Source of the DNA: a virus
Lineage: Duplodnaviria > Heunggongvirae > Uroviricota > Caudoviricetes
Virus record (IMG/VR): IMGVR_UViG_2974578326_000001
Span: 26,711-90,710 of that record
DNA length: 64,000 nt
Direction: 5' to 3' (one strand)
The first letter of the stretch is position 1, and every line of letters starts with the position of its first letter. The notes beneath the pieces are model-generated. The model ran no database searches, was not told the DNA's origin, and saw nothing but the letters and a program-made list of their open reading frames with translations. Of the stretch, positions 11,772 to 53,618 are shown in pieces. Position numbers and translations under genes: made by a program.

Positions 11772-12170
11772 TTAATATTTACCGCTAACTTTAAAATCCT
11801 CATAGTATTTGTATTTTCCTGTTTTATCAGAAAACTCTGAATCTTCATTGTTAGCTTCACACCCTAATTTGAAACCACACAAATCTCTATAAGATACAAT
11901 GGTTTCTGGGCTATCATCCATCCACACATCAGGAACCCATCCAATTGCTTCTGCAATGTGTGCTTTCTGTTTTCCTGAGCAATATATTACCTCTATACCT
12001 AATTCTTTTAAATCGGGTTCTAGGTCGTGTTCATTACCCTCTGGAAATCTATAAGTAAAAATCCTAACATCCCATTCAAATGATTTCATCAGGAATATGA
12101 TTTCTTTCCACTTATCACGATCAAGAGTGTACGTGTTATCATAATCTACTGCTATCTTTACAGTTTTCAT
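11772..12170 (-). CDS. HAD-superfamily phosphatase-like protein (possible 3'-phosphatase/5'-nucleotidase)
   Basis: motif I DxDxT (AVDYDNTYT) and DD motif (VWMDDS), resembling the T4 Pnkp phosphatase domain. Confidence 0.4.
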   Translation of the reverse strand: MKTVKIAVDYDNTYTLDRDKWKEIIFLMKSFEWDVRIFTYRFPEGNEHDLEPDLKELGIEVIYCSGKQKAHIAEAIGWVPDVWMDDSPETIVSYRDLCGFKLGCEANNEDSEFSDKTGKYKYYEDFKVSGKY

Positions 12171-12909: not shown

Positions 12910-13422
12910 TTATTTCCTATAAATATTAACATCATAAGAGTCTTCAAAAATCGTTTTAATATTCTTTTCAACTTCTTTCCAATTACCACCAGCTAAACCG
13001 CAACCGATTAATGGAAAACCAATCTTATAACCAATATTAGCTAAACCTCTGTCATCCAGTTCGTTTGCCATTCTAACAAGTCCTACAGTCAAGTATGATA
13101 ACTGGGTTCCATAATCTTCATGCCAATATCTATAATCTAGTTGACCGTAAATATTGAATACAAACTTATTCTTTTCTTTTTCAAAGAAAGAACAATGTCC
13201 AAGTCGATCTTTACCTTTTTCTTTTGAATATTCAGAATCAGATTTAAAAGCCTCTGGAATATCCCTCTTTAGTTGTTTAGCAAAACCAGAACCCATCACA
13301 TTATAGCAATTCGCTTGGTGTGCAATACAATCTACCTCACCGTCTATAAAGGCTTTTATTAGATCACCTTTTATATATTTAATCATACTACACCACCAAA
13401 TGATCTTCCTATGTTTCCGCAC
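12910..13422 (-). CDS. macro domain (ADP-ribose binding/processing) protein
   Basis: IKGDLIKA..VDCIAHQANCYNVMGSGFAKQ and GFPLIGCGLAGG match macro-domain signature. Confidence 0.7.
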   Translation of the reverse strand: MRKHRKIIWWCSMIKYIKGDLIKAFIDGEVDCIAHQANCYNVMGSGFAKQLKRDIPEAFKSDSEYSKEKGKDRLGHCSFFEKEKNKFVFNIYGQLDYRYWHEDYGTQLSYLTVGLVRMANELDDRGLANIGYKIGFPLIGCGLAGGNWKEVEKNIKTIFEDSYDVNIYRK

Positions 13423-39730: not shown

Positions 39731-40659
39731 TTTTTATACTCCTTATAAATGTTTTTAGCTAAATCGAGGAAAATATCAATAGTAATTTGTTTTGATGATA
39801 TTTCATCTGGTATTAATAATTCCCCATTTTTCTCATCACTTAAAAAAGTATGAGTTAAAGTGAAATTTTCCTTGTTACGATCGAACAGGTCAGTATATTC
39901 TCTGTCGTAGTAACCAAACCTTCCGTAACCATTTTCCGTATCACCCCAATTGCCTTGGTAGATTTGTTTAAAATCACCAGTACACATGTTTTTGAAATCT
40001 TCTAATGTGGCTTCATAGTGCGGCAAAATAGTAGAATCATAGTCAACAATATTTACATATGTTTCCCCAGAGTAATCTTTACACATATAAAACATCTGAG
40101 ATAACATAAAAGAGAAATGCCAATCAAAACCTTTATTGATAAGCAGGTTGAATACAAATCCTATATCATAATCATTGAGGATGTTTCGAATCATCATAGC
40201 TGGCAACAATGTTTTCTGCATGTTTAAGCCTTTAGTTTTTATTTTAAAACCATTGACTTCCATCATTACACTTTCATTATCTATGTGACACTCTTCTTCT
40301 TCATATTCTGGTACAATAAAGGTTCCAAACTCTATATGGTCAAACATCCCATTGTTCATTGGATTCTCTAGAACTTCACTGATTAATTTATCTAAGAATT
40401 TCTTTTGATCCATATCACCACGTATCTGTTTTACAATATATAAATCTGATGAAAACCTGTCACTTGGGTAATATATTACATGATCGAGATTATCTGAAAA
40501 TATGTTATCTAATGAAACATCTTCCCAATCTTCATTTTCAACAACACAATCTAATTCAGACAACATACCAAAGCATGGTACATCTTCTCGGAACATCCAC
40601 CCGTTATCACCTACTAATGTTAGATACATCTTAATCCTCTGTCTCTTCACCAATACCAC
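39715..40659 (-). CDS. hypothetical protein
   Basis: 314-aa ORF. Confidence 0.4.
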   Translation of the reverse strand: MVLVKRQRIKMYLTLVGDNGWMFREDVPCFGMLSELDCVVENEDWEDVSLDNIFSDNLDHVIYYPSDRFSSDLYIVKQIRGDMDQKKFLDKLISEVLENPMNNGMFDHIEFGTFIVPEYEEEECHIDNESVMMEVNGFKIKTKGLNMQKTLLPAMMIRNILNDYDIGFVFNLLINKGFDWHFSFMLSQMFYMCKDYSGETYVNIVDYDSTILPHYEATLEDFKNMCTGDFKQIYQGNWGDTENGYGRFGYYDREYTDLFDRNKENFTLTHTFLSDEKNGELLIPDEISSKQITIDIFLDLAKNIYKEYKKWSIA

Positions 40660-40900
40660 GTAGCTGACTTACATACACTTGTTTACCATCTTTTCCAGTA
40701 ACAGTGCATTGCCCAGTTAAAACTCGGAAAGTTGTATCTCGGCTTAGGTCATATTGAGCTAGAACACAATCTTTAAACTGTATTCCTCTGAAGTAACCGA
40801 GAATAATAACAAATACCAAAAAGATAAGAAGCGCTAAATAACGCTTCTTGAAGTATTTATTTGATAATTGATTATATTTGTCTTTAATAATATTAATCAT
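40631..40900 (-). CDS. small single-pass membrane protein
   Basis: 89 aa, one TM helix (LALLIFLVFVIILGYF). Confidence 0.4.
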   Translation of the reverse strand: MINIIKDKYNQLSNKYFKKRYLALLIFLVFVIILGYFRGIQFKDCVLAQYDLSRDTTFRVLTGQCTVTGKDGKQVYVSQLRGIGEETED

Positions 40901-41289
40901 TTTTGTTCAGCCTTTAATTCTTCAAACATTTTATCTAAATTGCGGACATGTTCTTCGGTGTCGTTAATAAAATGTTTAATTTGAGCTTGTCGGAATTTAA
41001 TTTCACCTAAAGCTAATAGCGATTCAGCATAAGAGTCAGCAAACATTCGACGTGAAAATTCTAACGCACGGTTGCAACCCTTTCCTTTGTTGTCAATTTG
41101 GTTTTGTCGAATCTGCTTTTTGATGTCAGTTAATACCGATGAAAGTTGGATTCGAACAATACGAGCTGCTGCCATTTCACGATTAGTATTCTTTAAATCT
41201 TTTCGAGCTTGGTCTAAATTAGCACCAATTGCTTTTAAAGAAAATTCAACAGAAGATAACTTAGTTGTTTTAGCAGTTGCTTTAGTCAT
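40897..41289 (-). CDS. hypothetical coiled-coil protein
   Basis: 130-aa ORF. Confidence 0.4.
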   Translation of the reverse strand: MTKATAKTTKLSSVEFSLKAIGANLDQARKDLKNTNREMAAARIVRIQLSSVLTDIKKQIRQNQIDNKGKGCNRALEFSRRMFADSYAESLLALGEIKFRQAQIKHFINDTEEHVRNLDKMFEELKAEQK

Positions 41290-41350
41290 GATTAAATACC
41301 TTTTAATAAACGATTAATTAAGTGAGTTTCTTTTAAGAAGTTTACAAATA

Positions 41351-41560
41351 TTATTTAGAAGAAATAATCTCTTCACCAGTGATAGCTTTTACTGCTGTAA
41401 GTGCTTTTTCTGCACTTGACTGTTCTTGTTTCATTGTCTTTAATTCTTTTTCAGCAGTTGTGATATTCTCTTTATTTTCAGATAAAAACAAAACAAGATC
41501 ATCACGAACTTTTGTGAATGAAGAAAGGATAGAAGATAGTGATTTTTTAGATGAGAACAT
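41351..41560 (-). CDS. hypothetical coiled-coil protein
   Basis: 69-aa ORF. Confidence 0.35.
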   Translation of the reverse strand: MFSSKKSLSSILSSFTKVRDDLVLFLSENKENITTAEKELKTMKQEQSSAEKALTAVKAITGEEIISSK

Positions 41561-41571
41561 TTTAATACCTC

Positions 41572-41994
41572 TTATTTAATAAAATAGTGATCTTTGTATT
41601 TATGAATATCTTTTCCTTGTGCCCAGTATGGTTTACTATTCCCACTGTAAAAGAATTTATATTCGTACTTTGGTTTATACCCAGGTTTTAGAGTCATTAG
41701 TGCAACTCTTCCTGCCGTTTGGAAGTTTTCTAGCTCACCGTAGTGCTTCAATCTTCCTTTCTCAAGAGTTTTATAATACTCCAAGAATCCTTTCTCATCT
41801 CTGGTCTTTAATACAGTTGACCATGAAAACTGATTCTTTTGAAGTAGTACACCCATTACATTATCTGGGAATCTAGGATCTTCAACCCTATTGTGAACTA
41901 CATCAGCTACTCTGTGCATTCCATCAAACCCTTGATTTCCTGCTTCCATGTAGGTGTTCATTGTTAATGCTAACCAGCATACTAAGAATTTCAA
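41572..41994 (-). CDS. SleB-like cell-wall hydrolase (Hydrolase_2) with signal peptide
   Basis: N-terminal signal sequence; EAGNQGFDGMHRVADVVHNRVEDPRFPDNV..QFSW matches SleB domain. Confidence 0.6.
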   Translation of the reverse strand: MKFLVCWLALTMNTYMEAGNQGFDGMHRVADVVHNRVEDPRFPDNVMGVLLQKNQFSWSTVLKTRDEKGFLEYYKTLEKGRLKHYGELENFQTAGRVALMTLKPGYKPKYEYKFFYSGNSKPYWAQGKDIHKYKDHYFIK

Positions 41995-42054
41995 AACATA
42001 TAACTCCTTTTAATTAATATCACAAGAAGCCTAATAGACTTCTTAGGTTATTAA

Positions 42055-42393
42055 CTAATATCTACGGAGTATTATATCAACACCATATTTATTCTTAAAT
42101 GAATCTTTAGCAGAGTACATATTTGTAACTGCTGAAGAATTATGTGAGTGTATGTAAATTGTTTTAAGTCTGATTAATACATCTCTATGAAGAAGTTCTT
42201 CAATTATGTACAATGCATCCTTTCCCTCAAAACCTTCTATACCTAAATCATTATCTAGTGAAACTGTAACTATTTCTTTAGAATGGTTATGTATGCAATT
42301 GAAAAAAGATTTTCTATCATTCGCCCAGTATGTTTTACCTGTGCATAACACATACTCAGGTGGTTTTCTGATATCATCAAGCCAAAGAAACAT
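42055..42393 (-). CDS. cyclic-phosphate processing receiver (CPR) domain protein
   Basis: MFLWLDDIRKPP ... VSLDNDLG ... IHSHN pattern of CPR family found with RNA-repair genes. Confidence 0.55.
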   Translation of the reverse strand: MFLWLDDIRKPPEYVLCTGKTYWANDRKSFFNCIHNHSKEIVTVSLDNDLGIEGFEGKDALYIIEELLHRDVLIRLKTIYIHSHNSSAVTNMYSAKDSFKNKYGVDIILRRY

Positions 42394-42448
42394 AAATCCT
42401 CCAGTAAATTTAAGATAAGGTACACACTAGGTATACCTTAGATTTAAA

Positions 42449-42664
42449 TCAACTAACAATTTTATACTTAGTGTTTCTTGTTTTAAGTATCAAATCACCA
42501 TCTTCATCAGTTGTTAATGATTCAACTCTTGATGTAAGAACAGGGGTTCCATCCTTGAATGGATGATTCCCGTGTGTTGATGTATCATTCTTAATGAATC
42601 CAGACACAACCCTTTCTTCAATAAAGAATGTTTCGATTTTTAATTCAGCATCATACTTACTCAT
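42449..42664 (-). CDS. hypothetical protein
   Basis: 71-aa ORF. Confidence 0.35.
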   Translation of the reverse strand: MSKYDAELKIETFFIEERVVSGFIKNDTSTHGNHPFKDGTPVLTSRVESLTTDEDGDLILKTRNTKYKIVS

Positions 42665-42674
42665 AAGTACCTAC

Positions 42675-43613
42675 TCAGTTTTTACTTCGCATATCCATGA
42701 TCATTTGACCATCATAAGATGCACCAACAACTGTTTGTGGTACATCACCTTTATATGCTTTAGCACGTAGCATTTCAACATCCAATTGCTTCCATTTAAG
42801 CATCTCAGGTGTGATTGTTTGCTGTAAAGCTTTATTGGCTTCAGCTTCTTTCTGTGCTGCATATAACCGAGCATCCGCATCACGTTCATTAGCTTGGGCA
42901 TCATTGTTACGAGCTTCACGTTCAGCTTCTGCCTGTTTAACTTTCTGTTGTGCGACAGCTTCTGCTTTTTTCAGATTTGCAAGTTCAGCATTAACTTGTT
43001 CTTCACGTACTTTTGTGTTAGTGACCTGAGTCATGATTACTTCAGGAAGAGTAATATCTTGCAAGAAGACCTGCTTAACAGTGTAACCATAAGGTCGTGC
43101 ATATTCTTCAACTTCCTGTTGAATTGCAATCTGCAACTCATTCTGGATTTTGGAGTCAAACAAATCTTGTGCTTTAGGAACAGATTTACCGAATTCTCGG
43201 ATTGTACTTAACAATTTCTCTGTTACATATCGATCAAGTGCTTGATCTTGATTACCTGCGTTGACTTTGTTTACAGGTGCTTTATTACCATCAAACTGCA
43301 ACATAACAGTAATGTCAACAGTGGATTTAAACTTATCTTGAGATGGAACTTGAAGGGCTTCAAACTTCATTGCAATATCTTTAGTGCTAAATGTATCATA
43401 GCTTGCAATTGGGTTTACAAAGTGGAAACCTGGTGTAATAATGTTTGGATTAACCTTACCTAGGAATGTCTGAGTAACAACAGATCCATCCTGAACAACA
43501 ATGTAAGAGTTAAGACCAACAATAAGAACACCCAAGCCAATAGCTAAACCAGCCAAGTATTTCTTTGGTTTTTCCATTACTTTTTCAATAAAATTCATAT
43601 TTTCTTTTTTCAC
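42675..43613 (-). CDS. SPFH/band-7 (prohibitin/HflK-like) membrane-anchored protein
   Basis: N-terminal TM helix, SPFH core, C-terminal Ala/Glu-rich coiled coil. Confidence 0.6.
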   Translation of the reverse strand: MKKENMNFIEKVMEKPKKYLAGLAIGLGVLIVGLNSYIVVQDGSVVTQTFLGKVNPNIITPGFHFVNPIASYDTFSTKDIAMKFEALQVPSQDKFKSTVDITVMLQFDGNKAPVNKVNAGNQDQALDRYVTEKLLSTIREFGKSVPKAQDLFDSKIQNELQIAIQQEVEEYARPYGYTVKQVFLQDITLPEVIMTQVTNTKVREEQVNAELANLKKAEAVAQQKVKQAEAEREARNNDAQANERDADARLYAAQKEAEANKALQQTITPEMLKWKQLDVEMLRAKAYKGDVPQTVVGASYDGQMIMDMRSKN

Positions 43614-43652
43614 AATTAAGCCTTATTAAGGGGGTTATCTCCCCCATTGTAT

Positions 43653-44900
43653 TTAGGAGAAAATTACATCAATCAGATCAATCTCTACAACTTGATCTAA
43701 TCGTGCATAAAGTGGTTGACCAAATAAGTCGAATCGAATTTCTATTGTATCCTTCTTAACCGACACAAAAGATGGGTCATTACTTCTTACATGAAAAGAC
43801 ATTGCGAAGTGTTCTTTTTCTACACCTTCATAATCTTTATATACTCTGTAATCTACACCATTACCTTGAAGACATGGAATATCACTTAAGTATTCTTCTA
43901 TTGATGAAACAACTTCATAATCTTCAACTCCTTCTTCCCCTAAATAAACTAACTCAGGTTTGTTTTGTTTTATGATTTTAAGAAGAGTTTCATTATCAAA
44001 TGTGAAATAAATAGATTGACCCCCTTTTGAAACTATATAAGGGATAAGATTATAGTCTCGATCATAACCTTTGATATTAATTCCACCAAGTGTTATTTCT
44101 GTCATTTTATATTTCTTTTCGACACTATCTAATCGAATTGATAGTCCCATCATTTTAACAGATTCAACAAAAGGTCGATCTGGGAAACGATTAACCTCTG
44201 CTGTTAAGTTTTGCAGAATATCAAAGTTCATGTTTGAGTTTTCAGACATGATTTTAAAGTATTCGGTTTTTGATTTATCATTAAGTTTATCATCCAAATA
44301 ATCTTGAATAATATCCCAACCTAAATGATCATATTTAAATGTGTAGTGAATACGATTAGGACGGTCAATCATATACTCACTTACACTTTTAACATTCGCT
44401 GATAATAAGAACACATTACCAGTGTGAATGCCACCATCCATGATTGTTAGTAAATCATTTTGCTGATCTTTATGTTGATATTTCTTTTCAAATTCATCGA
44501 TAAAGAATACCAAAGGTCGACCAGCTAATTCAATCATGCTTGTGATTGTTGCTGCATCATAAGGTGCATCGAAGTGGATAACAGGGAATCCCATTTTACT
44601 TGCTAATTCATTGTTTAAAATGTTTAGCATCATGGTTTTACCAGAACCTTTCTCACCAACAGCTAATACACCTGTGTTATTTTTCGGAGAACGATCATGG
44701 ATTGTCTTCATAACATCCATAACTTTAGCAGATGGATCACCGTAAATCTTGCTAGGAACACTTGGTTCAGACACCTTTTTAAAATATGGAGGTGTTGTCA
44801 TTGTCGCTGGAGAGTATGTATAATGTCCACCCTCTAGAACTTCAAAGCGTTTATCTGCATTTGAAGCTCTTGATACGATTCCATCTTTTTCTTGTAACAT
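43653..44900 (-). CDS. AAA-type P-loop ATPase
   Basis: Walker A GEKGSGKT, Walker B FFIDEFEK. Confidence 0.5.
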   Translation of the reverse strand: MLQEKDGIVSRASNADKRFEVLEGGHYTYSPATMTTPPYFKKVSEPSVPSKIYGDPSAKVMDVMKTIHDRSPKNNTGVLAVGEKGSGKTMMLNILNNELASKMGFPVIHFDAPYDAATITSMIELAGRPLVFFIDEFEKKYQHKDQQNDLLTIMDGGIHTGNVFLLSANVKSVSEYMIDRPNRIHYTFKYDHLGWDIIQDYLDDKLNDKSKTEYFKIMSENSNMNFDILQNLTAEVNRFPDRPFVESVKMMGLSIRLDSVEKKYKMTEITLGGINIKGYDRDYNLIPYIVSKGGQSIYFTFDNETLLKIIKQNKPELVYLGEEGVEDYEVVSSIEEYLSDIPCLQGNGVDYRVYKDYEGVEKEHFAMSFHVRSNDPSFVSVKKDTIEIRFDLFGQPLYARLDQVVEIDLIDVIFS

Positions 44901-44904
44901 TTTG

Positions 44905-46032
44905 TTATCCTTTTACATTAACAACAGGTTTAATATAGTGTAAAACTTCTACAAGATCTTCTTGAAGTCTCATAACATCAAAAATATCTTTATAGGCAAA
45001 AGGTGATTCATCTATTGTTGATTCACCAACAGTAGCACCTGGGATGTCTTTCATGGACTCTTTAAAGGATTCTAGTGTTACCTCTTTCTTAGCCTTAGAA
45101 CGACTCATAACACGACCAGCACCATGAGAGGAACTGTTCATGCTTTCTGGATTACCTTTACCACGAACAATGAAACAACCATCACGCATGTTTCCAGGAA
45201 TAACACCCATCATTCCATTATCAGCATGTGTTGCACCTTTTCGGTGAACCCATAAATTGTTTTTGAACTCAGCATGGTTATGATTTCTATTAATAATAGA
45301 ATTACCATCCATAGTGAATCCATTAACTGAGCATACACGCTGTGCAATGTATTCACGGTTCGCTAGTGCAAACTGAAGACCATATTCTAAATCTAGAATA
45401 TAATCTCTGCCCTCTTCAGAAGTCTCTGAAAGAGGACAAGCACTTTCAGCTTTTCCCTCATCACCAGAAGCCAATTTCATATACAATGATGCTATACCAT
45501 GTCCAATGGATCGACTACCAGAGTGGATAGTTAACCAAACTTGATCTTCTTCATCATATCCAATTTCAATGAAATGGTTTCCTCCACCAAGAGTTCCAAT
45601 ACAATTTGGAGCATGGCCAAGGATATCATTAATTCTGCTGGAATGTTTTGGTAGTACTTTTTGAGATAACCACTTACTTGCTTCTTGAAGATTTTCATTT
45701 TTAGAGAAACCCACAGGAACCGCTGAAAATATTTTATCTCTGATAGTTTCAGCATTATTGATTAAATCTCCTTTAGTTACACCAAGGAGTTTCACGGAGA
45801 ACATACCACATCCGATATCATATCCAACAAATGATGGGTATATTGTTCCAGCTGTTGAGACAACTGCACCAATTGGAAGTACATATCCAGAGTGGGCATC
45901 AGGCATTAATGCACCTTGAACTACATCAGGTAGTGACATTACATTTACAAATTGATCTATTGCACCTGATTCTAAATACTCTGCATAGATTTTATAAGGT
46001 TTATTTAATTCTTCTAGTTTTTTAAGTTTCAT
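44905..46032 (-). CDS. rtcB: RtcB-family RNA 3'-phosphate ligase
   Basis: metal/GTP-site motifs PDAHSGYVLPIG, NHNHAEF, SSHGAGR. Confidence 0.85.
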   Translation of the reverse strand: MKLKKLEELNKPYKIYAEYLESGAIDQFVNVMSLPDVVQGALMPDAHSGYVLPIGAVVSTAGTIYPSFVGYDIGCGMFSVKLLGVTKGDLINNAETIRDKIFSAVPVGFSKNENLQEASKWLSQKVLPKHSSRINDILGHAPNCIGTLGGGNHFIEIGYDEEDQVWLTIHSGSRSIGHGIASLYMKLASGDEGKAESACPLSETSEEGRDYILDLEYGLQFALANREYIAQRVCSVNGFTMDGNSIINRNHNHAEFKNNLWVHRKGATHADNGMMGVIPGNMRDGCFIVRGKGNPESMNSSSHGAGRVMSRSKAKKEVTLESFKESMKDIPGATVGESTIDESPFAYKDIFDVMRLQEDLVEVLHYIKPVVNVKG

Positions 46033-46244
46033 TATAAATCTTTTATGATTAGTTCTGAAGATTTCAGTTCTACACGATCTTCTGGTTTAAAATAAGCAGG
46101 TTTCATATCTGTCATTGATATGGCATTGATTGTATGGTTTATAATAATTTTCAAATAAACCTTTTCCTTGAATAGGAAGACATCACCATATCTTAATACA
46201 GTGAATTCTTTTAATTGTTTATCTTTGTCAAATTTAATTTTCAT
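46032..46244 (-). CDS. small protein, GD-x-F family member
   Basis: paralog of 46241-46474, 56879-57112, 57114-57362. Confidence 0.4.
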   Translation of the reverse strand: MKIKFDKDKQLKEFTVLRYGDVFLFKEKVYLKIIINHTINAISMTDMKPAYFKPEDRVELKSSELIIKDL

Positions 46245-46474
46245 CTTATCACCTGTACTATTGTCTTCACTTTTTCCACATGTGTATCCGTTGGGTGGAA
46301 CATTGCTAATCTATTTTCAGATAAGTTAACTGAATTGATATTATCTTCTACAACGTCCTTTATTTTTAAATAAATATTACCTTTAAACTGAAAAGTATCA
46401 CCAAAATTTAAATCACAAAACTTTACAAACTTCCGACCTTTCTCAGTTATTTCAATATTCATTTTAGACCTCAT
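46241..46474 (-). CDS. small protein, GD-x-F family member
   Basis: FCDLNFGDTFQFKGNIYLKI pattern shared with paralogs. Confidence 0.4.
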   Translation of the reverse strand: MRSKMNIEITEKGRKFVKFCDLNFGDTFQFKGNIYLKIKDVVEDNINSVNLSENRLAMFHPTDTHVEKVKTIVQVIR

Positions 46475-46748
46475 AAAAAGAGTTTGAGATTATAATTTCA
46501 ACAGATTCTAATCTTTGGAAATAATCATGGCTCCAGAAATTCGATACTGGTTGAATTGAACCATCATCTAATTCAATATTTATTGTCTGATCTCTTCGAC
46601 TTGAATTCACAACAGCGTCGAAAGCTTTCTTAGCTTTGTTGAAATCTGACCATACATATGGAAGAGTATCATTTTCTCTATATGAATTAAAAGAATTACC
46701 ATCTATATAGCACACTTTTACTTCAAATTTTGGTGTTATGTCACTCAT
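46464..46748 (-). CDS. hypothetical protein
   Basis: 94-aa ORF. Confidence 0.35.
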   Translation of the reverse strand: MSDITPKFEVKVCYIDGNSFNSYRENDTLPYVWSDFNKAKKAFDAVVNSSRRDQTINIELDDGSIQPVSNFWSHDYFQRLESVEIIISNSFYEV

Positions 46749-47016
46749 GGCATTCTAACTCTATGATATTATCACTGTTAATCCAACCACCAACAATTTT
46801 TAAATTCATATCATTGTGTGCATACCTATATGTTGTTTTATAAGAGGTTTCTCTAATTTTATCAAATTTAACATAAACATATTTGGGTTTACCAGTATAA
46901 GGGTAGTCATAAACAATGAATTGTCCATCGCAATCAACTTTTCTGGAATTATCTAAGTTTGAAAAAGAATTACATCCACAAAGTGCCATTGTTAATAACA
47001 ACAGTAATTTTTTCAT
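46741..47016 (-). CDS. putative secreted/lipoprotein
   Basis: signal peptide MKKLLLLLTMALCGC. Confidence 0.4.
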   Translation of the reverse strand: MKKLLLLLTMALCGCNSFSNLDNSRKVDCDGQFIVYDYPYTGKPKYVYVKFDKIRETSYKTTYRYAHNDMNLKIVGGWINSDNIIELECHE

Positions 47017-47148
47017 AACTAATAACCTTATTTAATTTGTGGAGAATGATGGATTCCAACCATCCACCCCACCTTGGGTAGCGAACTATCGGATGTTTGA
47101 TAGACATACGCCCAAGGTAGAGTTGCCGCATGCATCCCCATAGAATAT

Positions 47149-47224
47149 TGGTACCCTGTACAGGATTCGAACCTGTGACCTACGATTTAGAAGATCGTTG
47201 CTCTCTCCACTGAGCTAACAGGGT
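47149..47224 (-). tRNA. tRNA-Arg (anticodon UCU)
   Basis: 76-nt cloverleaf read on minus strand, anticodon loop CTTCTAA, T-loop GGTTCGAATCC, CCA encoded. Confidence 0.8.
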
Positions 47225-47228
47225 TAAT

Positions 47229-47305
47229 TGGTGGCCCTTGCTGGACTTGAACCAGCGACCAATCAGTTATGAGCTGATCGCTCTAACCATCTGAGCTAAA
47301 GGGCC
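47229..47305 (-). tRNA. tRNA-Met (anticodon CAU; elongator, or Ile2 if lysidinylated)
   Basis: 77-nt cloverleaf, anticodon loop CTCATAA, CCA encoded; 4 nt from tRNA-Arg. Confidence 0.75.
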
Positions 47306-47314
47306 ATTTTATTA

Positions 47315-47479
47315 ACAGGATTCATCACAAGGTGCATCACCGCATGTTTCACAAACTATTTTTGAATAGAAACACCCCTCTACTGAATCCCCGTCTAAAG
47401 TATCTACACCACAATCAGGGCAAACACCATTAGGTTTACTTCCATCACTTAAAAGGTTCCAACCATCACAACAAGCCAT
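47315..47479 (-). CDS. Cys-rich 54-aa protein (not in ORF track)
   Basis: 12 Cys incl. CPDCG, CETCGDAPC; AAGG SD upstream of ATG at 47479. Confidence 0.3.
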
Positions 47480-47480
47480 A

Positions 47481-47678
47481 TCACATACCTTTTTTCTTAT
47501 TATTTATATAATTAAACATACCCAAATCAGCACCATTTTTAATTGCAGCAGATATTAGTGTATCTGGGGAAATGTAATCTAAAACCTTGTCGATCTTACC
47601 TTCAATAATAAGACAATGTGCAATATCTGATTCATTATGTTCAAATATCAACTTCTGTAATAACTCAACGTTTCTCAT
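47481..47678 (-). CDS. hypothetical protein
   Basis: 65-aa ORF. Confidence 0.3.
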   Translation of the reverse strand: MRNVELLQKLIFEHNESDIAHCLIIEGKIDKVLDYISPDTLISAAIKNGADLGMFNYINNKKKGM

Positions 47679-47895
47679 TTAGATTTCCTTTTTCTTCACA
47701 CTCATCAGATAATATTGTACCACCAGAAATTACAATTAAAACAAATGCTAAGAAACCCCAAATAATACCACCTATTGGGTATACCAAATATAATTGCTCT
47801 CCTCGAAAACCAATATCATACCTTAGTTTTACAAAGAATGTGCAAATAGTAATTGTTAATACCATAGATAAGATAATCCATGTTCCTTTTTTCAT
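47665..47895 (-). CDS. small membrane protein
   Basis: 76 aa, 2 TM helices. Confidence 0.35.
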   Translation of the reverse strand: MKKGTWIILSMVLTITICTFFVKLRYDIGFRGEQLYLVYPIGGIIWGFLAFVLIVISGGTILSDECEEKGNLNEKR

Positions 47896-47909
47896 ATTTA
47901 TACCTTTAT

Positions 47910-47981
47910 CGCTCCGTGCAGGAATCGAACCTGCAACTACCTCTTAGGAGGAGGTTATTATATCCATTTAACTAACAGAGC
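47910..47981 (-). tRNA. tRNA-Arg (anticodon CCU)
   Basis: cloverleaf on minus strand, anticodon loop CTCCTAA, T-loop GGTTCGATTCC, no encoded CCA. Confidence 0.7.
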
Positions 47982-47986
47982 ATTGA

Positions 47987-48193
47987 TTATTTTTTAATAA
48001 ACGGTCGATCAACCGAAACAGTCCATCCAATCGTCACAGTAGTCATGAATATATAAAATAGAATTGCTTCATTGTCTCCAATTTGAGTATATCTACCCAA
48101 GTTGTATGATTGTATTGCTGTAATCAATACAGCTAAGAAAACCTTAAACATATTAATTACCTCAAAGTGGGCAACATTTAATCTGCTACCCAC
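47987..48193 (-). CDS. small membrane protein
   Basis: 68 aa, 2 TM helices. Confidence 0.35.
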   Translation of the reverse strand: MGSRLNVAHFEVINMFKVFLAVLITAIQSYNLGRYTQIGDNEAILFYIFMTTVTIGWTVSVDRPFIKK

Positions 48194-48204
48194 TGTATTA
48201 TTTA

Positions 48205-48861: not shown

Positions 48862-48870
48862 TATTTATCC

Positions 48871-50520
48871 TTAAATATAGAGCTTTAAATTATTTTTAAT
48901 ACGAGATTCAATCTCAGACCAATCAGTTGTCGTTACTTCACCATCCTTAAAAATGGTTAACAGTGAAGTGTTCTCTTCTTCTTCAACTGTTGCCTTGTCC
49001 TTGAATTTCAGGACTCCATCTTCATAGTAATGGTAAATGAGACCAGTTAATGATTTCTTACCAGGATCAGTAATTGGATCTTTCATTACTTCACGTGCTT
49101 CGCCATTAACAACACCATATGTTGCTTTGATTGCAAAACCAAAGGTATCACGGGTGATGTACTGATACGTGAATGCACCTACACCAAATACTACAGCAGA
49201 TGATGCATACCCTTTATCATGTAAACGCTCCATGATTTCATTAGCACGCTGTTTAGTGATTGAATCGCCGTAAAGAACGCCAACATGGGGATCGAGAACC
49301 TTGAAGCCTTTTGAGTTTATAGTGTGACCAAAGATTTCATCAAGTAATTGAACTACTCCTTTCATCTCAGGAGCCAGTTTATCAATTTGAGACCATTTAA
49401 AATCAAAACCAACATCTTTATCTTCTAAATAAGATGCGATATATTTCTTGCCATTAATAGTTTCAATAATGAAATCAGTAATCTCTCGATTATAACGTTG
49501 ACACAAGATATTATGAACATCATCAACGGTGTGATAATCAAGTTTTGTAATGTTACAGCGAATAACTGGTAAGCCACACAGGATATCAGCTGGATCACCT
49601 GAATCAGGTCGTGTTACAACCTTACCATCTCTGGAAAGGATTACATCTTTCAGCTCACGTAAGATTTTATCAACGTGGTTCCATGTATCCCAAGTATCAT
49701 TTACTATTGACACAATACCTGTTGGCGTTGTTTCTGTGATAAGACGACGAACAGTATCAAGTTCACCATCTTTCGTCCCCATGCACATTACAGAGTGTTC
49801 TGTTGCATCTACAGAACCACCACGTTCTGTTTTGTAAACGTGCTCAAATATCTCACGACCAAAAACAGAGTCAGTACCTTGGAACACAGATAAGTGAGCC
49901 ATACCAGCAATTGCTGATGCATAGATTCCATAATCACCACGGCTACTGAAATCATGACCTTGCCAATCAACATGTGAATTATCATCACAATTTCGAATTG
50001 CCCACTGTTCACAGAGTAGACGGAAATGAAATGCTGTTGTCGCAGAAGTAATGATAGGCCACATCTCTGCACTAATTAAGGTTTCAAGGTAGTTCACAAG
50101 CCAGAAAAAATCTGGATGGGTATTTTTAATTGTTAACATTGGGGTTCCAACATCAACAACTTCACCCTCTGGAACAACTTTAATTTCGAGTGGTAAGTAA
50201 CCAAGTTTGTGTAAAGCTCGGATACGGCTAATATCGTAATCTTTTCCGAGGTAACGATCAACAGAACGCTTCATCTCATCACAAATGCTTTCATCTTTTT
50301 GGAAGAATTCAGAATCAAATTCATCTTTAATCCAATTAGTAATGAAAGCTTGAAAACCAAAACTAAGAATCTTTGGATCATCAGTTACTTGTCTATCGGT
50401 AAATCGTTTTGCATTACGTGGTACAAAGTTACCATATATAAGACTTGTACCTTCTGGGTATTGATTTGCATGAGATAGTTTATAACCATCAATTGCAAAA
50501 ATAGGAGATGTTCTTTTCAT
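48871..50520 (-). CDS. NAMPT-family nicotinamide phosphoribosyltransferase (NadV/Namat-like)
   Basis: 549 aa; PIFAIDGYKLSHANQYP and GHDFSSRG match NAMPT N-terminal and catalytic motifs. Confidence 0.85.
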   Translation of the reverse strand: MKRTSPIFAIDGYKLSHANQYPEGTSLIYGNFVPRNAKRFTDRQVTDDPKILSFGFQAFITNWIKDEFDSEFFQKDESICDEMKRSVDRYLGKDYDISRIRALHKLGYLPLEIKVVPEGEVVDVGTPMLTIKNTHPDFFWLVNYLETLISAEMWPIITSATTAFHFRLLCEQWAIRNCDDNSHVDWQGHDFSSRGDYGIYASAIAGMAHLSVFQGTDSVFGREIFEHVYKTERGGSVDATEHSVMCMGTKDGELDTVRRLITETTPTGIVSIVNDTWDTWNHVDKILRELKDVILSRDGKVVTRPDSGDPADILCGLPVIRCNITKLDYHTVDDVHNILCQRYNREITDFIIETINGKKYIASYLEDKDVGFDFKWSQIDKLAPEMKGVVQLLDEIFGHTINSKGFKVLDPHVGVLYGDSITKQRANEIMERLHDKGYASSAVVFGVGAFTYQYITRDTFGFAIKATYGVVNGEAREVMKDPITDPGKKSLTGLIYHYYEDGVLKFKDKATVEEEENTSLLTIFKDGEVTTTDWSEIESRIKNNLKLYI

Positions 50521-50783
50521 TCTGAATCCAACTCAATTTCTAATGTTTTAATTCTACCAATAGCAAGGACAAGGGTGTTATTTTTAACAGATATAAGTGA
50601 TGCATCTTCTAATCTTAGATATGCATCATGCCCTTCATAGTTATTTTGAACCTTTATATAACTTCCATCAACTCTGCCATTAATTTTATAAATCTTACCA
50701 TCGTTAGGTTCTGTCATCCCTGACTGTATATATGGTAATTTTTTATCGACAACAACCTTTTTCAGAAATTTAGGGTTTTTCAA
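50517..50783 (-). CDS. hypothetical protein
   Basis: 88-aa ORF between NAMPT and PRPS-like genes. Confidence 0.35.
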   Translation of the reverse strand: MKNPKFLKKVVVDKKLPYIQSGMTEPNDGKIYKINGRVDGSYIKVQNNYEGHDAYLRLEDASLISVKNNTLVLAIGRIKTLEIELDSE

Positions 50784-50792
50784 TTGTAACCT

Positions 50793-51593
50793 CTACTTTG
50801 TCCAGTCATAAACAGCATAGATATGATCAATAATATTATAGAACACTTCTTTACCTTTTGAGAAGATACCATTCGTAACGAACAGAGAGATTGATTCAGG
50901 ATTACCCTTAGCTCTTAATGCTTTGGCTACTTCAACAAATGTACGACCACCATCACAAATATCATCAACAATAATCAGATTAGCGTCACAGTAGTCAATG
51001 GAAGTATTGACTTCTACACCAGTGATTTCTCCTGTTGATGTATCACGAATTTTACTTGCGTGTATAACAGGTTTGTTGAATAATTTTGATAACTCATGAA
51101 TCTTTTTATCAGCCCCTGCATCTGGTGATACAAATATTGTTTTTCCTTTAAACATCTCACCTATTGGTAAAGCGTGTTTGTGTTGCAGGAACACTTGAGA
51201 TTGTTTAATTACACTGGAATTATTTATCAGTGCTGGTGCAACATCAGAGTGTGGATCAATAAGAATAACTTCATCTGCATTCAAAGAGTTAACTAAGTTC
51301 GCAAACACTTTTAAAGAGAAGCACTCTGTTTTAGATGTTACACGATCTTGTCTTGCGAATGGTAGATATTCAAAGATGATTTTTAAATTACCATCTTTAC
51401 GTTTCATACGACTTACTACATCATGAATAAGAAGCATATCGATTACTTCATCAGAAGAGCGTAGAGAACAGATCATCTCAACATCAATAACAACTACTGG
51501 AGGTTTTGACAAAAGCTTGGCGTGTCTTTCACCTCCGTTAAATGAGAACAAATCAAATTCTTGAGGAATACCATTCATTGTTACATGAATCAT
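50793..51593 (-). CDS. ribose-phosphate pyrophosphokinase-like (PRPS/Adps-like) enzyme
   Basis: 266 aa; PFARQDR and PRPP-binding loop IVDDICDGGRT. Confidence 0.75.
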   Translation of the reverse strand: MIHVTMNGIPQEFDLFSFNGGERHAKLLSKPPVVVIDVEMICSLRSSDEVIDMLLIHDVVSRMKRKDGNLKIIFEYLPFARQDRVTSKTECFSLKVFANLVNSLNADEVILIDPHSDVAPALINNSSVIKQSQVFLQHKHALPIGEMFKGKTIFVSPDAGADKKIHELSKLFNKPVIHASKIRDTSTGEITGVEVNTSIDYCDANLIIVDDICDGGRTFVEVAKALRAKGNPESISLFVTNGIFSKGKEVFYNIIDHIYAVYDWTK

Positions 51594-51907
51594 TCTAAAT
51601 CCTCCACATATTTTTTATACCACTTATCAACCTTTTTACTAATTGAATCTTCCAGTAAAGAGATGAAATTTTCTTTAGTAATGAACCCTTTATTGCGATA
51701 ATAAAGAAAAGCACAATCAACAGAAGAAATAATAATGTCAGCAGTTTCATTAACTACATTCTCCATATGTTCATTATAAAGAATAGCAGACTGAAGTTCA
51801 CCAGACTCTTCTCCTACTTTTAATGCTACATCTTTTGGATCTCTTGCTAGACCAGCAACAAACGATGTATCTAATATTTTATTTAGAGATTCCATACTTA
51901 TCTTCAT
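51590..51907 (-). CDS. MazG-like nucleoside triphosphate pyrophosphohydrolase
   Basis: EESGELQSAIL and ETADIIISSV (EExxE / ExxD helices). Confidence 0.5.
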   Translation of the reverse strand: MKISMESLNKILDTSFVAGLARDPKDVALKVGEESGELQSAILYNEHMENVVNETADIIISSVDCAFLYYRNKGFITKENFISLLEDSISKKVDKWYKKYVEDLE

Positions 51908-52139: not shown

Positions 52140-52211
52140 TAACTTTCATACCAGTGTATTATTAAGATGATAAGGTATATAACTAAGAAAAAGTGATACA
52201 TCATATACCTC

Positions 52212-52234
52212 CTTATATTATGTGCAATAATTTA
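52212..52234 (-). promoter_or_regulatory. copy 3 of conserved promoter/operator-like motif
   Basis: cttatattatgtgcaataattta followed by AAGGAGG SD. Confidence 0.45.
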
Positions 52235-52729
52235 TCGACCAATTTTTGTACAATGAGGCATATTTTCTAGTCCTTCCTTTACCTCTGGTAATAAATCAAT
52301 TGCTAGTTTAAGGAAACTTATTGGAACCCTGTCACAAGAAGGCCTTTCTCTATTGATTTTAACAAGCTCTTCAAAAGGTTTCTCAAATAGTTTGTAACAA
52401 AATTGCAGGTCGAGATAATCAGCTAGCATTTTCCAATCAAGAACTGTACCAATATTAAAATTAGTGTTGCATATTATAATTTCTTTTATTTGGCTTCTTT
52501 TTGAAAGCTCGATAACTTGTGCCTTCATCATGTTTTTCATCAAAGACAGTGTTTCTTTATTATTTAGTCTTGAAAAGAATTCTTTTTTATCCATATCTCC
52601 AAATAAGGTTGTTCTCAAGTTATCTAAACTAACAACTGCAATCCTTCCTAAATCTCTTTTGCAACGTCTATTAGTCCAAGTGGTTTTACCCGCACCAGCA
52701 GAACCAATTGTTAATATTAACTTTTTCAT
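52232..52729 (-). CDS. polynucleotide 5'-kinase (T4 Pnk kinase domain only)
   Basis: MKKLILTIGSAGAGKTTW almost identical to T4 Pnkp N-terminus; collinear through the kinase domain; no HAD phosphatase domain. Confidence 0.7.
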   Translation of the reverse strand: MKKLILTIGSAGAGKTTWTNRRCKRDLGRIAVVSLDNLRTTLFGDMDKKEFFSRLNNKETLSLMKNMMKAQVIELSKRSQIKEIIICNTNFNIGTVLDWKMLADYLDLQFCYKLFEKPFEELVKINRERPSCDRVPISFLKLAIDLLPEVKEGLENMPHCTKIGR

Positions 52730-52740
52730 TTAATACCTTT

Positions 52741-53010: not shown

Positions 53011-53012
53011 AG

Positions 53013-53539: not shown

Positions 53540-53618
53540 ATTAATTTCACCTTTAATTTAAATTAAGATTAGGAGTCGCTCAAGATCCCTCAAGCGACTT
53601 ATTAATGATTACAGAGGT

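What the first reader, a model, noticed from the sequence alone, without database searches (positions are those of the whole stretch)
42055..46032. RNA-repair module: RtcB ligase with CPR receiver domain, AAA ATPase and SPFH protein; kinase-only Pnk and HAD phosphatase elsewhere
RtcB (motifs DAHSGY, NHNHAEF, GAGR) seals 2',3'-cyclic-phosphate/5'-OH RNA breaks, exactly the ends left by anticodon nucleases (PrrC, RloC, colicin-like toxins) and other RNase defences. Downstream in the same operon are an AAA ATPase and a band-7 protein. A cyclic-phosphate processing receiver domain protein (WLDDIRKPP...SLDNDLG) follows, a family that comparative genomics associates with RtcB systems. Separately, 52232-52729 is a T4 Pnk-like kinase without its phosphatase half, and 11772-12170 carries the DxDxT HAD motif of that missing half. 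A 5'-kinase would antagonise RtcB chemistry, so the phage may handle both 5'-OH/3'-P and 5'-P/3'-OH repair routes, or the kinase may act on DNA.
Basis: partly seen in the sequence, partly recalled or inferred. Interest (0 to 1): 0.65.

Follow-up and report, generated by a model that had tools for sequence, protein, structure and literature searches.

The report
Phage RtcB ligase beside unrelated neighbours
The window is the published Proteus phage Privateer genome: it does encode an intact RtcB RNA-repair ligase and a small cyclic-phosphate-processing domain protein, but the ATPase and membrane protein between them travel with other genes in other phages, so this is an ordinary, already reported repair gene and not a new four-gene repair machine.

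Summary
They are RtcB (375 aa, every catalytic residue present), a classical AAA+ ATPase, a membrane-anchored SPFH protein, an overlooked 71-aa ORF and a cREC domain protein. The window is Proteus phage Privateer at 100% identity. Its genome paper already reports the RtcB-like ligase near the tRNA genes and the polynucleotide kinase.

The four-gene "module" does not hold up. The whole 64-kb non-structural region is co-directional, so sharing a strand carries no information. Of 79 non-genus RtcB loci, none has cREC, SPFH-next-to-AAA or Pnk, and one has an adjacent AAA. Of 80 AAA loci, none has RtcB. AAA relatives sit next to NAMPT, NMNAT-Nudix, Macro, rIIA/B-like and SPFH genes. One relative keeps the order Pnk–TerD–AAA–endolysin with no RtcB, SPFH or cREC.

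RtcB behaves as a stand-alone mobile gene, often flanked by HNH endonucleases or phosphoesterases. cREC is a plausible but untested helper, either for RNA ends or for ADP-ribose cyclic phosphate. Pnk is kinase-only. The 132-aa protein has HAD motifs and a matching predicted topology, but no family model supports it.

Verdict: already known, low interest.

The parts
44905..46032 (-). RtcB-family RNA ligase, 375 aa. This is the core and probably the only dedicated RNA-sealing component.
   Evidence: Pfam RtcB scores 288 bits. PDB alignments to the Thermus and Pyrococcus RtcB structures show D72, C75, N152, H153, H170, H251 and H303 matching Pho D95, C98, N202, H203, H234, H329 and H404. The start overlaps the stop of the upstream ORF (TAATG). 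The N-terminal 42 residues are conserved in homologs. GenBank annotates a shorter form starting at M43.
42055..42393 (-). Stand-alone cREC (cyclic-phosphate-processing receiver-like) domain protein, 112 aa. It is a possible auxiliary phosphoesterase.
   Evidence: PF20274 scores 53.9 bits against a cut-off of 27. D6, D7, D47 and D49 are invariant in alignment A5. The family is predicted but uncharacterised (PMC7824862, PMC9503650).
43653..44900 (-). Classical-clade AAA+ ATPase, 415 aa: an N-terminal beta domain, an AAA core with lid, and a variable C-terminal alpha/beta domain. It is a neighbour of RtcB, not a demonstrated partner.
   Evidence: PF00004 scores 29.7 bits; phrog_2376 gives 3.7e-60. 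The AF2 model has pLDDT 86. Foldseek top hits are Mpa, FtsH, Bcs1 and Cdc48. RtcB is found in 0 of 80 homolog loci.
42675..43613 (-). SPFH/band-7 protein, 312 aa, with an N-terminal hydrophobic anchor. It is a mobile accessory gene.
   Evidence: PF01145 scores 60 bits. It is 74-76% nt identical to T5-like phages and 67-81% aa identical in 36 IMG/VR loci that carry no RtcB, AAA or cREC.
42449..42664 (-). 71-aa ORF of unknown function between SPFH and cREC.
   Evidence: It has no Pfam hit and matches only PHROGs of unknown function. It is conserved at 93-97% within the genus.
47149..47982 (-). Three phage tRNA genes, about 1.1 kb upstream of RtcB on the same strand: Arg-UCU at 47149-47224, Met/Ile2-CAU at 47229-47305 and Arg-CCU at 47909-47982.
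   Evidence: ARAGORN and Rfam tRNA at 60-73 bits. No other RNA family was found in 40000-54000.
52232..52729 (-). T4 Pnk-like 5'-kinase domain only, 165 aa.
   Evidence: It aligns to T4 Pnk residues 1-138 at E 1e-11. The P-loop GSAGAGKT and the equivalents of D35, R38 and R126 are present. PF13671 scores 39.9 bits. A 42%-identical homolog sits next to TerD in L148, which has no RtcB.
48871..51907 (-). MazG-like (51590-51907), Prs/Adps-like (50793-51593) and NAMPT/Namat-like (48871-50520) genes. This is an NAD+ reconstitution-type block upstream of the tRNAs and RtcB.
   Evidence: Pfam and NCBIfam hits. The gene-pair architecture matches NARP1 as described in bioRxiv 10.1101/2024.02.11.579819.
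12910..13386 (-). Macro-domain protein. Its 40%-identical homolog is translationally coupled to RtcB in Cronobacter phage A24.
   Evidence: PF01661 scores 32.4 bits. BLASTP to the A24 gene upstream of RtcB gives E 7e-32.
11772..12170 (-). 132-aa HAD-like candidate phosphatase. It is unconfirmed and remote from both RtcB and Pnk.
   Evidence: Motifs I-IV are invariant in A2: D9, D11, T13 / T39 / K69 / D85, D86. In the AF2 model (pLDDT 62.6) D9, T39 and D85/D86 fall at or just after strand ends and K69 on the helix before strand 4. Foldseek gives no hit below E 0.03, though 5 of the top 11 are HADs. No HMM library hit was found.

Best explanation
The locus is a mosaic of independently mobile accessory genes inside the long co-directional early/middle gene array of Proteus phage Privateer. 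It is not a dedicated four-gene machine.

The one firmly assignable RNA-repair component is RtcB (44905-46032). By homology to characterised RtcB enzymes, it should use GTP and Mn2+ to guanylylate His303. It should then open a 2',3'-cyclic phosphate to a 3'-phosphate, activate that as RNA(3')pp(5')G, and join it to a 5'-OH end.

Its most likely job during infection is to reseal tRNAs, host or phage-encoded, and possibly other RNAs. These would be RNAs cut by metal-independent host ribonucleases such as anticodon nucleases and toxins, which leave exactly those ends.

cREC (42055-42393) is probably a small metal-independent phosphoesterase acting on cyclic phosphates. It may tidy RNA ends for RtcB, or process ADP-ribose cyclic phosphate for the neighbouring NAD+ reconstitution genes.

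The AAA+ ATPase is a protein-remodelling type enzyme that belongs to the backbone of this phage lineage. The SPFH protein is a horizontally shared membrane protein. Both merely flank the inserted RtcB and cREC genes.

Shown here: gene identities, catalytic residues and context statistics. Inferred: substrates, the counter-defence role and the activity of cREC.
For: - RtcB membership and a complete active site.
- RtcB is the only RNA ligase annotated in the whole genome. The other ligase is an ATP-dependent DNA ligase.
- tRNA genes lie 1.1 kb upstream on the same strand.
- The Privateer paper proposes the same tRNA-maintenance idea (PMC7881722).
- RtcB is autonomous. In 79 non-genus loci its recurrent neighbours are HNH endonucleases (14 plus 8 loci) and metallophosphoesterases (at least 12 loci). 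Cronobacter phage A24 has a Macro gene there instead. cREC is found in 0 of 79, Pnk in 0 of 79, and an AAA of this family in 1 of 79.
- From the AAA side, RtcB is in 0 of 80 loci and cREC in 0 of 80. NAMPT is in 26 of 87, rIIA/B-like genes in 27, Macro in 20, NMNAT-Nudix in 16 and SPFH in 14.
- The relative L148 has Pnk-TerD-...-AAA-Hydrolase_2 with no RtcB, SPFH or cREC.
- SE131 has the AAA-SPFH pair without RtcB in the locus read.
- The AAA fold matches Mpa, FtsH, Bcs1 and Cdc48.
- SPFH is shared with T5-like and T4-like phages in unrelated contexts.
- For cREC, the Pfam hit and conserved aspartates. It sits with Rnl1, a kinase and SIR2, or with phosphoesterases, Macro or SLOG genes elsewhere, as published.
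Against: - No experiment exists for any of these proteins in this phage.
- RtcB and AAA are separated by only 4 nt in Privateer. The same RtcB-then-AAA order recurs in one unrelated contig, L182, where RtcB is 52% and AAA 34% identical. A functional link is therefore not excluded.
- Of the 85 AAA proteins recovered from the 87 loci, 67 fall in one 50%-identity single-linkage cluster. The AAA context counts are therefore partly one lineage.
- My detection of cREC in distant loci relied on a small home-made HMM and could miss divergent members.
- RtcB already has cyclic phosphodiesterase activity (established knowledge), so a role for cREC in the RtcB pathway has no obvious biochemical need.
Confidence: 0.62

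Rival explanations
1. One reading: RtcB, the AAA ATPase, the SPFH protein and cREC form one functional RNA-repair module. For example, the ATPase remodels damaged RNPs or loads RtcB, SPFH scaffolds the complex at the membrane, and cREC prepares the ends.
For: - The genes are packed tightly on one strand: 4 nt between RtcB and AAA, 39 nt between AAA and SPFH.
- The block is conserved across the genus Privateervirus.
- One unrelated contig, L182, also has RtcB immediately followed by an AAA of the same family.
- One cREC locus, L239, has an SPFH gene 0.6 kb downstream.
- Eukaryotic RtcB works with an ATPase, DDX1 (PMC8668186 abstract).
Against: - RtcB and cREC are absent from all 80 AAA loci.
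- 78 of 79 RtcB loci have no AAA of this family, and none has cREC.
- 36 non-genus SPFH loci have none of the other three genes.
- L148 and SE131 keep AAA, with or without SPFH, but have no RtcB.
- The AAA fold is that of a protein unfoldase, not an RNA helicase.
- The entire 64-kb region is co-directional, so 'same operon' does not discriminate.
Confidence: 0.08
2. cREC, together with the Macro protein, serves the phage's NAD+/ADP-ribose metabolism and not RNA repair. It would open ADP-ribose 1'',2''-cyclic phosphate, a breakdown product of the ADPR-PP made by the Prs-like enzyme. The ADP-ribose could then re-enter the NARP1-type pathway encoded 6.5 kb upstream. RtcB works alone.
For: - The authors who defined cREC predict activity on cyclic ADPr derivatives, and find the domain only in NAD+/ADPr and RNA-repair contexts.
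- ADPR-cyclic-phosphate is reported as a derivative of ADPR-PP in the NARP1 preprint.
- Privateer carries Prs-like plus NAMPT-like genes, Macro, SLOG and PnuC.
- cREC loci contain NAMPT plus Prs (L232), SLOG plus Macro (L238) and a by-eye NADAR-like ORF (L237).
- RtcB needs no help to open cyclic phosphates (established knowledge).
Against: - cREC overlaps an Rnl1 RNA ligase gene in V5-like phages and in L232, which points to RNA ends.
- cREC sits inside a tRNA gene cluster in Novosibvirus.
- NAMPT was near cREC in only 1 of 13 non-genus loci.
- No biochemistry exists for any cREC protein.
Confidence: 0.2
3. RtcB is not mainly a counter-defence tRNA repair enzyme. It may repair rRNA or mRNA, as in the bacterial RtcB2-PrfH ribosome rescue system. 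It may process phage transcripts. Or it may simply be a selfish passenger of homing-endonuclease-driven mobility with little fitness effect.
For: - Bacterial RtcB paralogs repair 16S rRNA (PMC9304027, abstract).
- The second-best full-length NCBIfam hit is the release-factor-associated RtcB model TIGR03073, at 141 bits.
- HNH endonuclease genes flank RtcB in at least 22 of 79 loci.
- The gene's position varies even within the family Grimontviridae: in A24 it lies between nrdD and nrdG.
Against: - No prfH-like gene is annotated in the genome.
- All catalytic residues are conserved, and RtcB is 97-99% identical across the genus, which argues for selection on function.
- The phage tRNA genes are adjacent.
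- ARAGORN reports no intron-containing tRNA.
Confidence: 0.1

Closest known systems
RtcB RNA ligase (PF01139; E. coli RtcB, Pyrococcus horikoshii RtcB PDB 1UC2/4DWQ, Thermus TTHA1785 PDB 2EPG) and the phage 'RtcB-like RNA ligases' (phrog_1075)
   Same: It aligns along its full length. All metal ligands, the GTP-contacting Asn and the guanylylated His are conserved. Homologs occur in 708 phage records.
   Different: It is a short form of 375 aa, against 481-487 aa for the solved archaeal and Thermus enzymes. There is no rtcA, rtcR, archease or prfH partner. GenBank annotates it 42 residues too short.
cREC-centred RNA-repair/NAD+ neighbourhoods of phages (Iyer et al. 2021 PMC7824862; 2022 PMC9503650), for example Rnl1-cREC-SIR2-MazG with a kinase in V5-like phages
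   Same: The same functional parts list sits within about 11 kb: an RNA ligase, cREC, a P-loop kinase of the AAA_33/Pnk type and a MazG-like pyrophosphatase, with NAMPT and Prs nearby, as in L232.
   Different: The ligase is RtcB (3'-P/5'-OH chemistry), not Rnl1 (5'-P/3'-OH). There is no sirtuin. The parts are dispersed and interrupted by TerD, tRNAs, AAA and SPFH. Only cREC is detectably homologous to its V5-like counterpart.
T4 polynucleotide kinase/phosphatase (PseT; PDB 1LTQ) with Rnl1: the classical phage tRNA repair pathway against PrrC
   Same: The kinase domain of the protein at 52232-52729 is homologous, and its key residues are conserved. The biological rationale, undoing anticodon nuclease damage, is the same by inference.
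   Different: There is no phosphatase domain and no ATP-dependent RNA ligase in the genome. A 5'-kinase would block RtcB ligation, not feed it (established RtcB chemistry).
FtsH-HflK/C (AAA+ protease with an SPFH cage) and the proteasomal ATPase Mpa
   Same: The AAA core falls in the same classical clade. An SPFH gene is adjacent in Privateer, in SE131 and in a subset of environmental phages.
   Different: The phage ATPase has no transmembrane segment and no protease domain. It has its own N-terminal beta domain and a variable C-terminal domain. No interaction has been shown.

Membership tests
RtcB RNA ligase (PF01139) | Profile score above the curated threshold over the full length | tested here: met
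   288 bits against a cut-off of 27; residues 27-375 cover profile positions 1-426.
RtcB RNA ligase (PF01139) | Two-metal site ligands (Pho Asp95, Cys98, His203, His234, His329) | tested here: met
   D72, C75, H153, H170 and H251 align to them. They are invariant in A4.
RtcB RNA ligase (PF01139) | Nucleophilic His that forms the His-GMP adduct (Pho His404), and Asn202 | tested here: met
   H303 in SSHGAGR and N152 in GGNHF.
RtcB RNA ligase (PF01139) | GTP/Mn2+-dependent 3'-P or 2',3'>P with 5'-OH ligation activity | not testable with these tools
   This needs purified protein.
cREC (PF20274) | Profile score above the curated threshold | tested here: met
   53.9 bits against a cut-off of 27; residues 1-96 cover profile positions 1-86 of 88.
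cREC (PF20274) | Receiver-like acidic residues (an N-terminal DD and the Asp of the D-x-D-L-G motif) | tested here: met
   D6, D7, D47 and D49 are invariant in A5.
cREC (PF20274) | Never paired with a histidine kinase; found in RNA-repair or NAD+/ADPr contexts | tested here: met
   No histidine kinase is annotated anywhere in the genome. RtcB lies 2.5 kb upstream and NAMPT 6.5 kb upstream.
cREC (PF20274) | Cyclic-phosphate hydrolase activity | not testable with these tools
   The activity is only predicted in the literature.
Conserved RtcB-AAA-SPFH-cREC repair operon (the proposed module) | Co-occurrence of the four genes beyond one genus | tested here: not met
   0 of 80 AAA loci have RtcB or cREC. 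Of 79 RtcB loci, 0 have cREC and 1 has an AAA of this family. 0 of 36 non-genus SPFH loci have any of the other three. 0 of 13 cREC loci have RtcB.
Classical AAA+ ATPase (PF00004) | Walker A, Walker B, sensor-1 and the Arg finger region; AAA fold | tested here: met
   G82, K84, G85, G87, K88, D135, E136, N169, R180 and R183 are invariant in A3 (S86 is nearly invariant). The AF2 model has pLDDT 86, and Foldseek hits to Mpa, FtsH and Bcs1 have probability 1.00.
SPFH/Band 7 (PF01145) | Profile above threshold, plus a membrane anchor | tested here: met
   60 bits against a cut-off of 23.6. An N-terminal hydrophobic stretch, YLAGLAIGLGVLIVGLNSYIVV, is read directly from the sequence.
T4-type polynucleotide kinase-phosphatase (Pnkp) | N-terminal P-loop 5'-kinase domain with the Asp35, Arg38 and Arg126 equivalents | tested here: met
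   It aligns to 1LTQ/1LY1 residues 1-138 at E 1e-11. GSAGAGKT and LDNLR are present, and R126 aligns.
T4-type polynucleotide kinase-phosphatase (Pnkp) | C-terminal HAD 3'-phosphatase domain in the same protein | tested here: not met
   The protein ends at residue 165, and nothing aligns beyond T4 residue 138.
HAD phosphatase superfamily (for 11772-12170) | Motifs I-IV in order on a Rossmannoid core | tested here: inconclusive
   The motifs are invariant in A2, and D9, T39 and D85/D86 fall at or just after predicted strand ends. There is no Pfam, NCBIfam or PDB-sequence hit. The Foldseek best E is 0.03, and the top list mixes HADs with generic Rossmann folds.

The most novel reading that the evidence does not exclude
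The uncharacterised phage AAA+ ATPase family (phrog_2376) has fast-diverging N- and C-terminal domains. It may be a real accessory factor of phage counter-defence islands that restore NAD+ and repair RNA.

It is adjacent to NAMPT-type NAD+ salvage genes in several lineages. It lies immediately downstream of RtcB in two unrelated lineages, Privateervirus and contig L182. One possibility is that it unfolds or strips the host NADase or RNase effectors whose damage the neighbouring enzymes then reverse, with the SPFH protein as an occasional membrane partner.
Probability: 0.08. Interest if true: 0.55.

Novelty: already known. Interest (0 to 1): 0.2.

Why it matters
Phage RtcB is a credible counter to host ribonucleases that cut tRNA, and Privateer-like phages are candidates for therapy against Proteus. 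However, the gene and its proximity to the tRNA genes are already published.

This check adds three practical points:
- It warns against reading functional modules from adjacency in phages whose genes all run in one direction.
- It corrects the RtcB start codon and several misannotations in related genomes.
- It shows that the ATPase and SPFH genes belong to a different, NAD+-salvage-associated neighbourhood.

The cREC family remains biochemically untested. Privateer offers a compact system in which to ask whether it acts on RNA ends or on ADP-ribose cyclic phosphate.

Tried and rejected
- **Word-indexed protein searches.** Searches with cREC and with the 132-aa protein returned only 3 hits each, too few for deep alignments.
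- **Single-protein scan of viral contigs with the 132-aa protein.** It found only the sister phage.
- **Sigma-70 promoter and terminator scan of 41000-53500.** Promoter-like sites were no more frequent than in shuffled sequence (49 against 55 expected), and no convincing terminator was found. The scan therefore defined no operon boundaries.
- **PADLOC.** No defence-system model matched any module protein, apart from one weak AAA hit at 17 bits.
- **Rfam scan of 40000-54000.** It found only the three tRNAs, with no Y-RNA-like or other RNA partner.
- **'RNA ligase 1' in Cronobacter phage vB_CsaP_009.** This is the annotation of the homolog of 46464-46748. It has no Pfam support and was rejected as a second ligase.
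- **'Polynucleotide kinase' in rV5_ev158.** This is the annotation of the homolog of the 132-aa protein. A profile search of the PDB did not recover T4 Pnk, so it could not be substantiated.
- **My by-eye reading of a 202-aa ORF upstream of RtcB in L155 as a 2H phosphoesterase.** It got no Pfam support and is not used.

Full report
**Identity of the window.** The 5-kb stretch around the finding is 100% identical to Proteus phage Privateer (MT028297 / NC_048861; Grimontviridae, Privateervirus). A window coordinate equals the record coordinate minus 26710. The first 26.7 kb of the record holds the structural genes. The window therefore contains essentially all non-structural genes, almost all on the minus strand.

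**Check of the observation.**
- RtcB, 44905-46032, 375 aa: Pfam RtcB scores 288 bits against a cut-off of 27, and phrog_1075 gives 8e-114.
- AAA ATPase, 43653-44900, 415 aa: PF00004 scores 29.7 bits, and phrog_2376 gives 3.7e-60.
- SPFH, 42675-43613, 312 aa: PF01145 scores 60 bits.
- An unmentioned 71-aa ORF, 42449-42664.
- cREC, 42055-42393, 112 aa: PF20274 scores 53.9 bits against 27.
- A SleB-like cell-wall hydrolase follows at 41572-41994.

Alignment to solved RtcB structures shows the full catalytic set. D72, C75, N152, H153, H170, H251 and H303 correspond to Pyrococcus D95, C98, N202, H203, H234, H329 and the GMP-accepting H404.

The protein at 52232-52729 aligns only to the kinase domain of T4 Pnk (residues 1-138, E 1e-11). 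It has the P-loop and the equivalents of D35, R38 and R126, and it has no phosphatase half.

The protein at 11772-12170 carries DYDNT and three further HAD-like motifs. These are invariant in its few retrievable homologs. In a moderate-confidence model (pLDDT 62.6), D9, T39 and D85/D86 fall at or just after predicted strand ends and K69 lies on the helix before strand 4. No Pfam, NCBIfam or PDB sequence or profile search supports a HAD assignment. Foldseek gives no hit below E 0.03. That assignment stays inconclusive.

**What is already known.** The Privateer genome paper (PMC7881722) reports the "RtcB-like RNA ligase" and notes that it lies about 1 kb downstream of three tRNA genes. It suggests the ligase keeps tRNAs intact, and it lists the polynucleotide kinase. 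RefSeq already labels the ATPase and the band-7 protein, and UniRef labels the cREC protein. The cREC family and its contextual link to RNA ligases and NAD+/ADP-ribose enzymes were described by Iyer et al. (PMC7824862, PMC9503650). Its activity remains a prediction.

**Is it a module?** Strand and spacing cannot decide this. The GenBank record annotates no terminator between window positions about 53,300 and about 28,000. My own promoter and terminator scan found nothing beyond chance. I therefore tested co-occurrence.

*From the RtcB side:*
- The seven closest non-genus homologs found first (51-53% identity) lack AAA, SPFH, cREC and Pnk within 10 kb.
- In a profile-based set of 79 non-genus viral loci (45-65% identity), cREC is present in 0, Pnk in 0 and SPFH in 1. 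An AAA of this family is present in 1 (L182, immediately downstream of RtcB).
- The recurrent neighbours are HNH endonucleases (14 plus 8 loci) and calcineurin-like phosphoesterases (at least 12 loci; four representative ORFs, from L155, L157, L220 and L221, confirmed by Pfam).
- In Cronobacter phage A24, the gene overlapping the RtcB start is a 40%-identical homolog of Privateer's Macro protein at 12910-13386.

*From the AAA side:*
- None of 80 viral loci has RtcB or cREC.
- ORF clustering of the neighbourhoods of 87 AAA loci finds NAMPT in 26 loci, an rIIA-like plus rIIB-like pair in 27, Macro in 20, NMNAT-Nudix in 16 and SPFH in 14.
- Of the 85 AAA proteins recovered from those loci, 67 form one 50%-identity cluster, so these counts are partly one lineage. 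The NAMPT link nevertheless appears in 4 of 9 clusters and in different arrangements.
- A 51%-identical AAA in contig L148 sits in the order Pnk-TerD-...-AAA-Hydrolase_2-...-COOH-NH2 ligase, with no RtcB, SPFH, cREC, NAMPT or Prs.
- Salmonella phage SE131 has AAA directly followed by a 71%-identical SPFH, then Prs and NAMPT, with no RtcB in the locus read.

*From the SPFH side:* The gene is 74-76% nt identical to T5-like phages and 67-81% aa identical in 36 IMG/VR loci from T5-like and T4-like genomes. None of those loci has RtcB, AAA or cREC.

*From the cREC side:*
- None of 13 non-genus loci has RtcB.
- The contexts are Rnl1-cREC-kinase-SIR2 with NAMPT and Prs nearby (L232, and phage HMD-6), metallophosphoesterases, SLOG plus Macro, a tRNA cluster in Novosibvirus, and one SPFH.

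The simplest reading is a lineage backbone of Pnk, TerD, AAA and the hydrolase. Into it Privateervirus has acquired MazG-Prs-NAMPT, the tRNAs plus RtcB, and SPFH-71aa-cREC.

**The ATPase.** An AF2 model built from 37 homologs is confident (pLDDT 86). It shows an N-terminal beta domain, an AAA core with lid, and a C-terminal alpha/beta domain. Foldseek places the core in the classical clade with Mpa, FtsH, Bcs1, Cdc48 and Msp1, which are protein-remodelling machines and not RNA helicases. Within the genus the ATPase is only 61% identical between Privateer and 3H10_20, while the flanking genes are 96-99% identical. The divergence is concentrated in the N-terminal domain (57%) and the C-terminal domain (44%).

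**Mechanism.** RtcB is the only RNA ligase in the genome. The other ligase is an ATP-dependent DNA ligase at 6180-7286. By homology, RtcB should seal 2',3'-cyclic phosphate or 3'-phosphate ends to 5'-OH ends through His303-GMP. Its most plausible use is to reverse cleavage of tRNAs or other RNAs by metal-independent host RNases. This is an inference and has not been shown.

The role of cREC is open. RtcB has its own cyclic phosphodiesterase step, so cREC is not obviously needed. Even so, phosphoesterases of several unrelated families (metallophosphoesterase, Macro) recur beside RtcB, so some end-processing partner seems useful. Alternatively, cREC and Macro may serve the adjacent NARP1-type Prs-like/NAMPT-like pair by recycling ADP-ribose cyclic phosphate. 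That compound is reported as a derivative of ADPR-PP.

The Pnk-like kinase has no 5'-P-dependent RNA ligase to feed, and it is a backbone gene next to TerD in L148.

**Verdict.** Novelty is "already known", and interest is low. The residual open lead is the AAA family's recurring position beside NAD+ salvage genes and, twice, beside RtcB.

Noticed in passing
window 45906-46032 (record 72616-72742): GenBank and RefSeq start the Privateer RtcB CDS at Met43. The longer ORF from 46032 overlaps the upstream stop (TAATG). It restores 42 residues that are conserved in A24 and IMG/VR homologs and are covered by the Pfam profile. Sister phages annotate the long form.
   Followed up: yes
window 48871-51593: [quoted passage not shown] MazG-like and Pnk-like genes lie upstream. 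The record annotates them only as generic biosynthesis enzymes.
   Followed up: partly
window 43653-44900; loci L021-L027, L068-L145: The AAA ATPase family (phrog_2376) is directly adjacent to NAMPT in many viral contigs (26 of 87). It often lies near NMNAT-Nudix, Macro, rIIA/rIIB-like and SPFH genes. None of the first 80 loci has RtcB or cREC. Most loci belong to one AAA lineage, so the strength of the association needs a phylogeny-corrected test.
   Followed up: partly
L182:9944-12187: An unrelated GC-rich 53.7-kb viral contig has RtcB (52% identity) followed 90 nt later by an AAA of the same family (34% identity). This is the same order as in Privateer. It is the only such case among 79 RtcB loci.
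   Followed up: partly
window 43653-44900 compared with L007:5156-6406: The ATPase is only 61% identical between Privateer and Proteus phage 3H10_20, while flanking genes are 96-99% identical. Divergence is concentrated in the N-terminal beta domain (57%) and the C-terminal domain (44%). This suggests allele replacement or rapid diversification.
   Followed up: partly
window 42675-43613: The SPFH gene is 74-76% nt identical to genes of T5-like Epseptimavirus phages. It is about 70% aa identical to genes in 176-180 kb T4-like contigs. This points to recent horizontal sharing among unrelated virulent enterobacterial phages. In T5-like phages it sits in the tRNA region beside NadR/PnuC, about 2 kb from a Hydrolase_2 gene.
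   Followed up: partly
window 11772-13386; L008:6510-8125: The Macro-domain protein (12910-13386) has a 40%-identical homolog that is translationally coupled to RtcB in Cronobacter phage A24. In Privateer it lies 32 kb from RtcB, two genes upstream of the HAD-like 132-aa protein.
   Followed up: partly
window 11007-11399 and 41572-41994: The phage carries two different peptidoglycan hydrolases. One is a T5 Lys-like peptidase, so annotated in the record. The other is a SleB-like Hydrolase_2 immediately downstream of cREC. RefSeq labels both as endolysin.
   Followed up: no
window 4098-5699: A further cluster with a nucleotide/NAD+ theme: a SLOG (YAcAr) domain protein, a PnuC-like transporter and a nucleoside 2-deoxyribosyltransferase-like protein.
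   Followed up: no
L006:8260-8544, L007:3556-3894 and 5156-6406: Likely misannotations in relatives. The homolog of 46464-46748 is called 'RNA ligase 1' in vB_CsaP_009, with no Pfam support. cREC is called 'sensor kinase protein' in 3H10_20 and J3S. The AAA ATPase is called 'DNA polymerase III subunit beta' in the 3H10_20 GenBank record.
   Followed up: partly
window 46464-46748; L009, L229-L231: The 94-aa protein upstream of RtcB has homologs about 4 kb from cREC in the T5-like Novosibvirus phages (Proteus phage Stubb and related IMG/VR contigs). This hints that Privateervirus and T5-like Novosibvirus phages exchange accessory genes.
   Followed up: no
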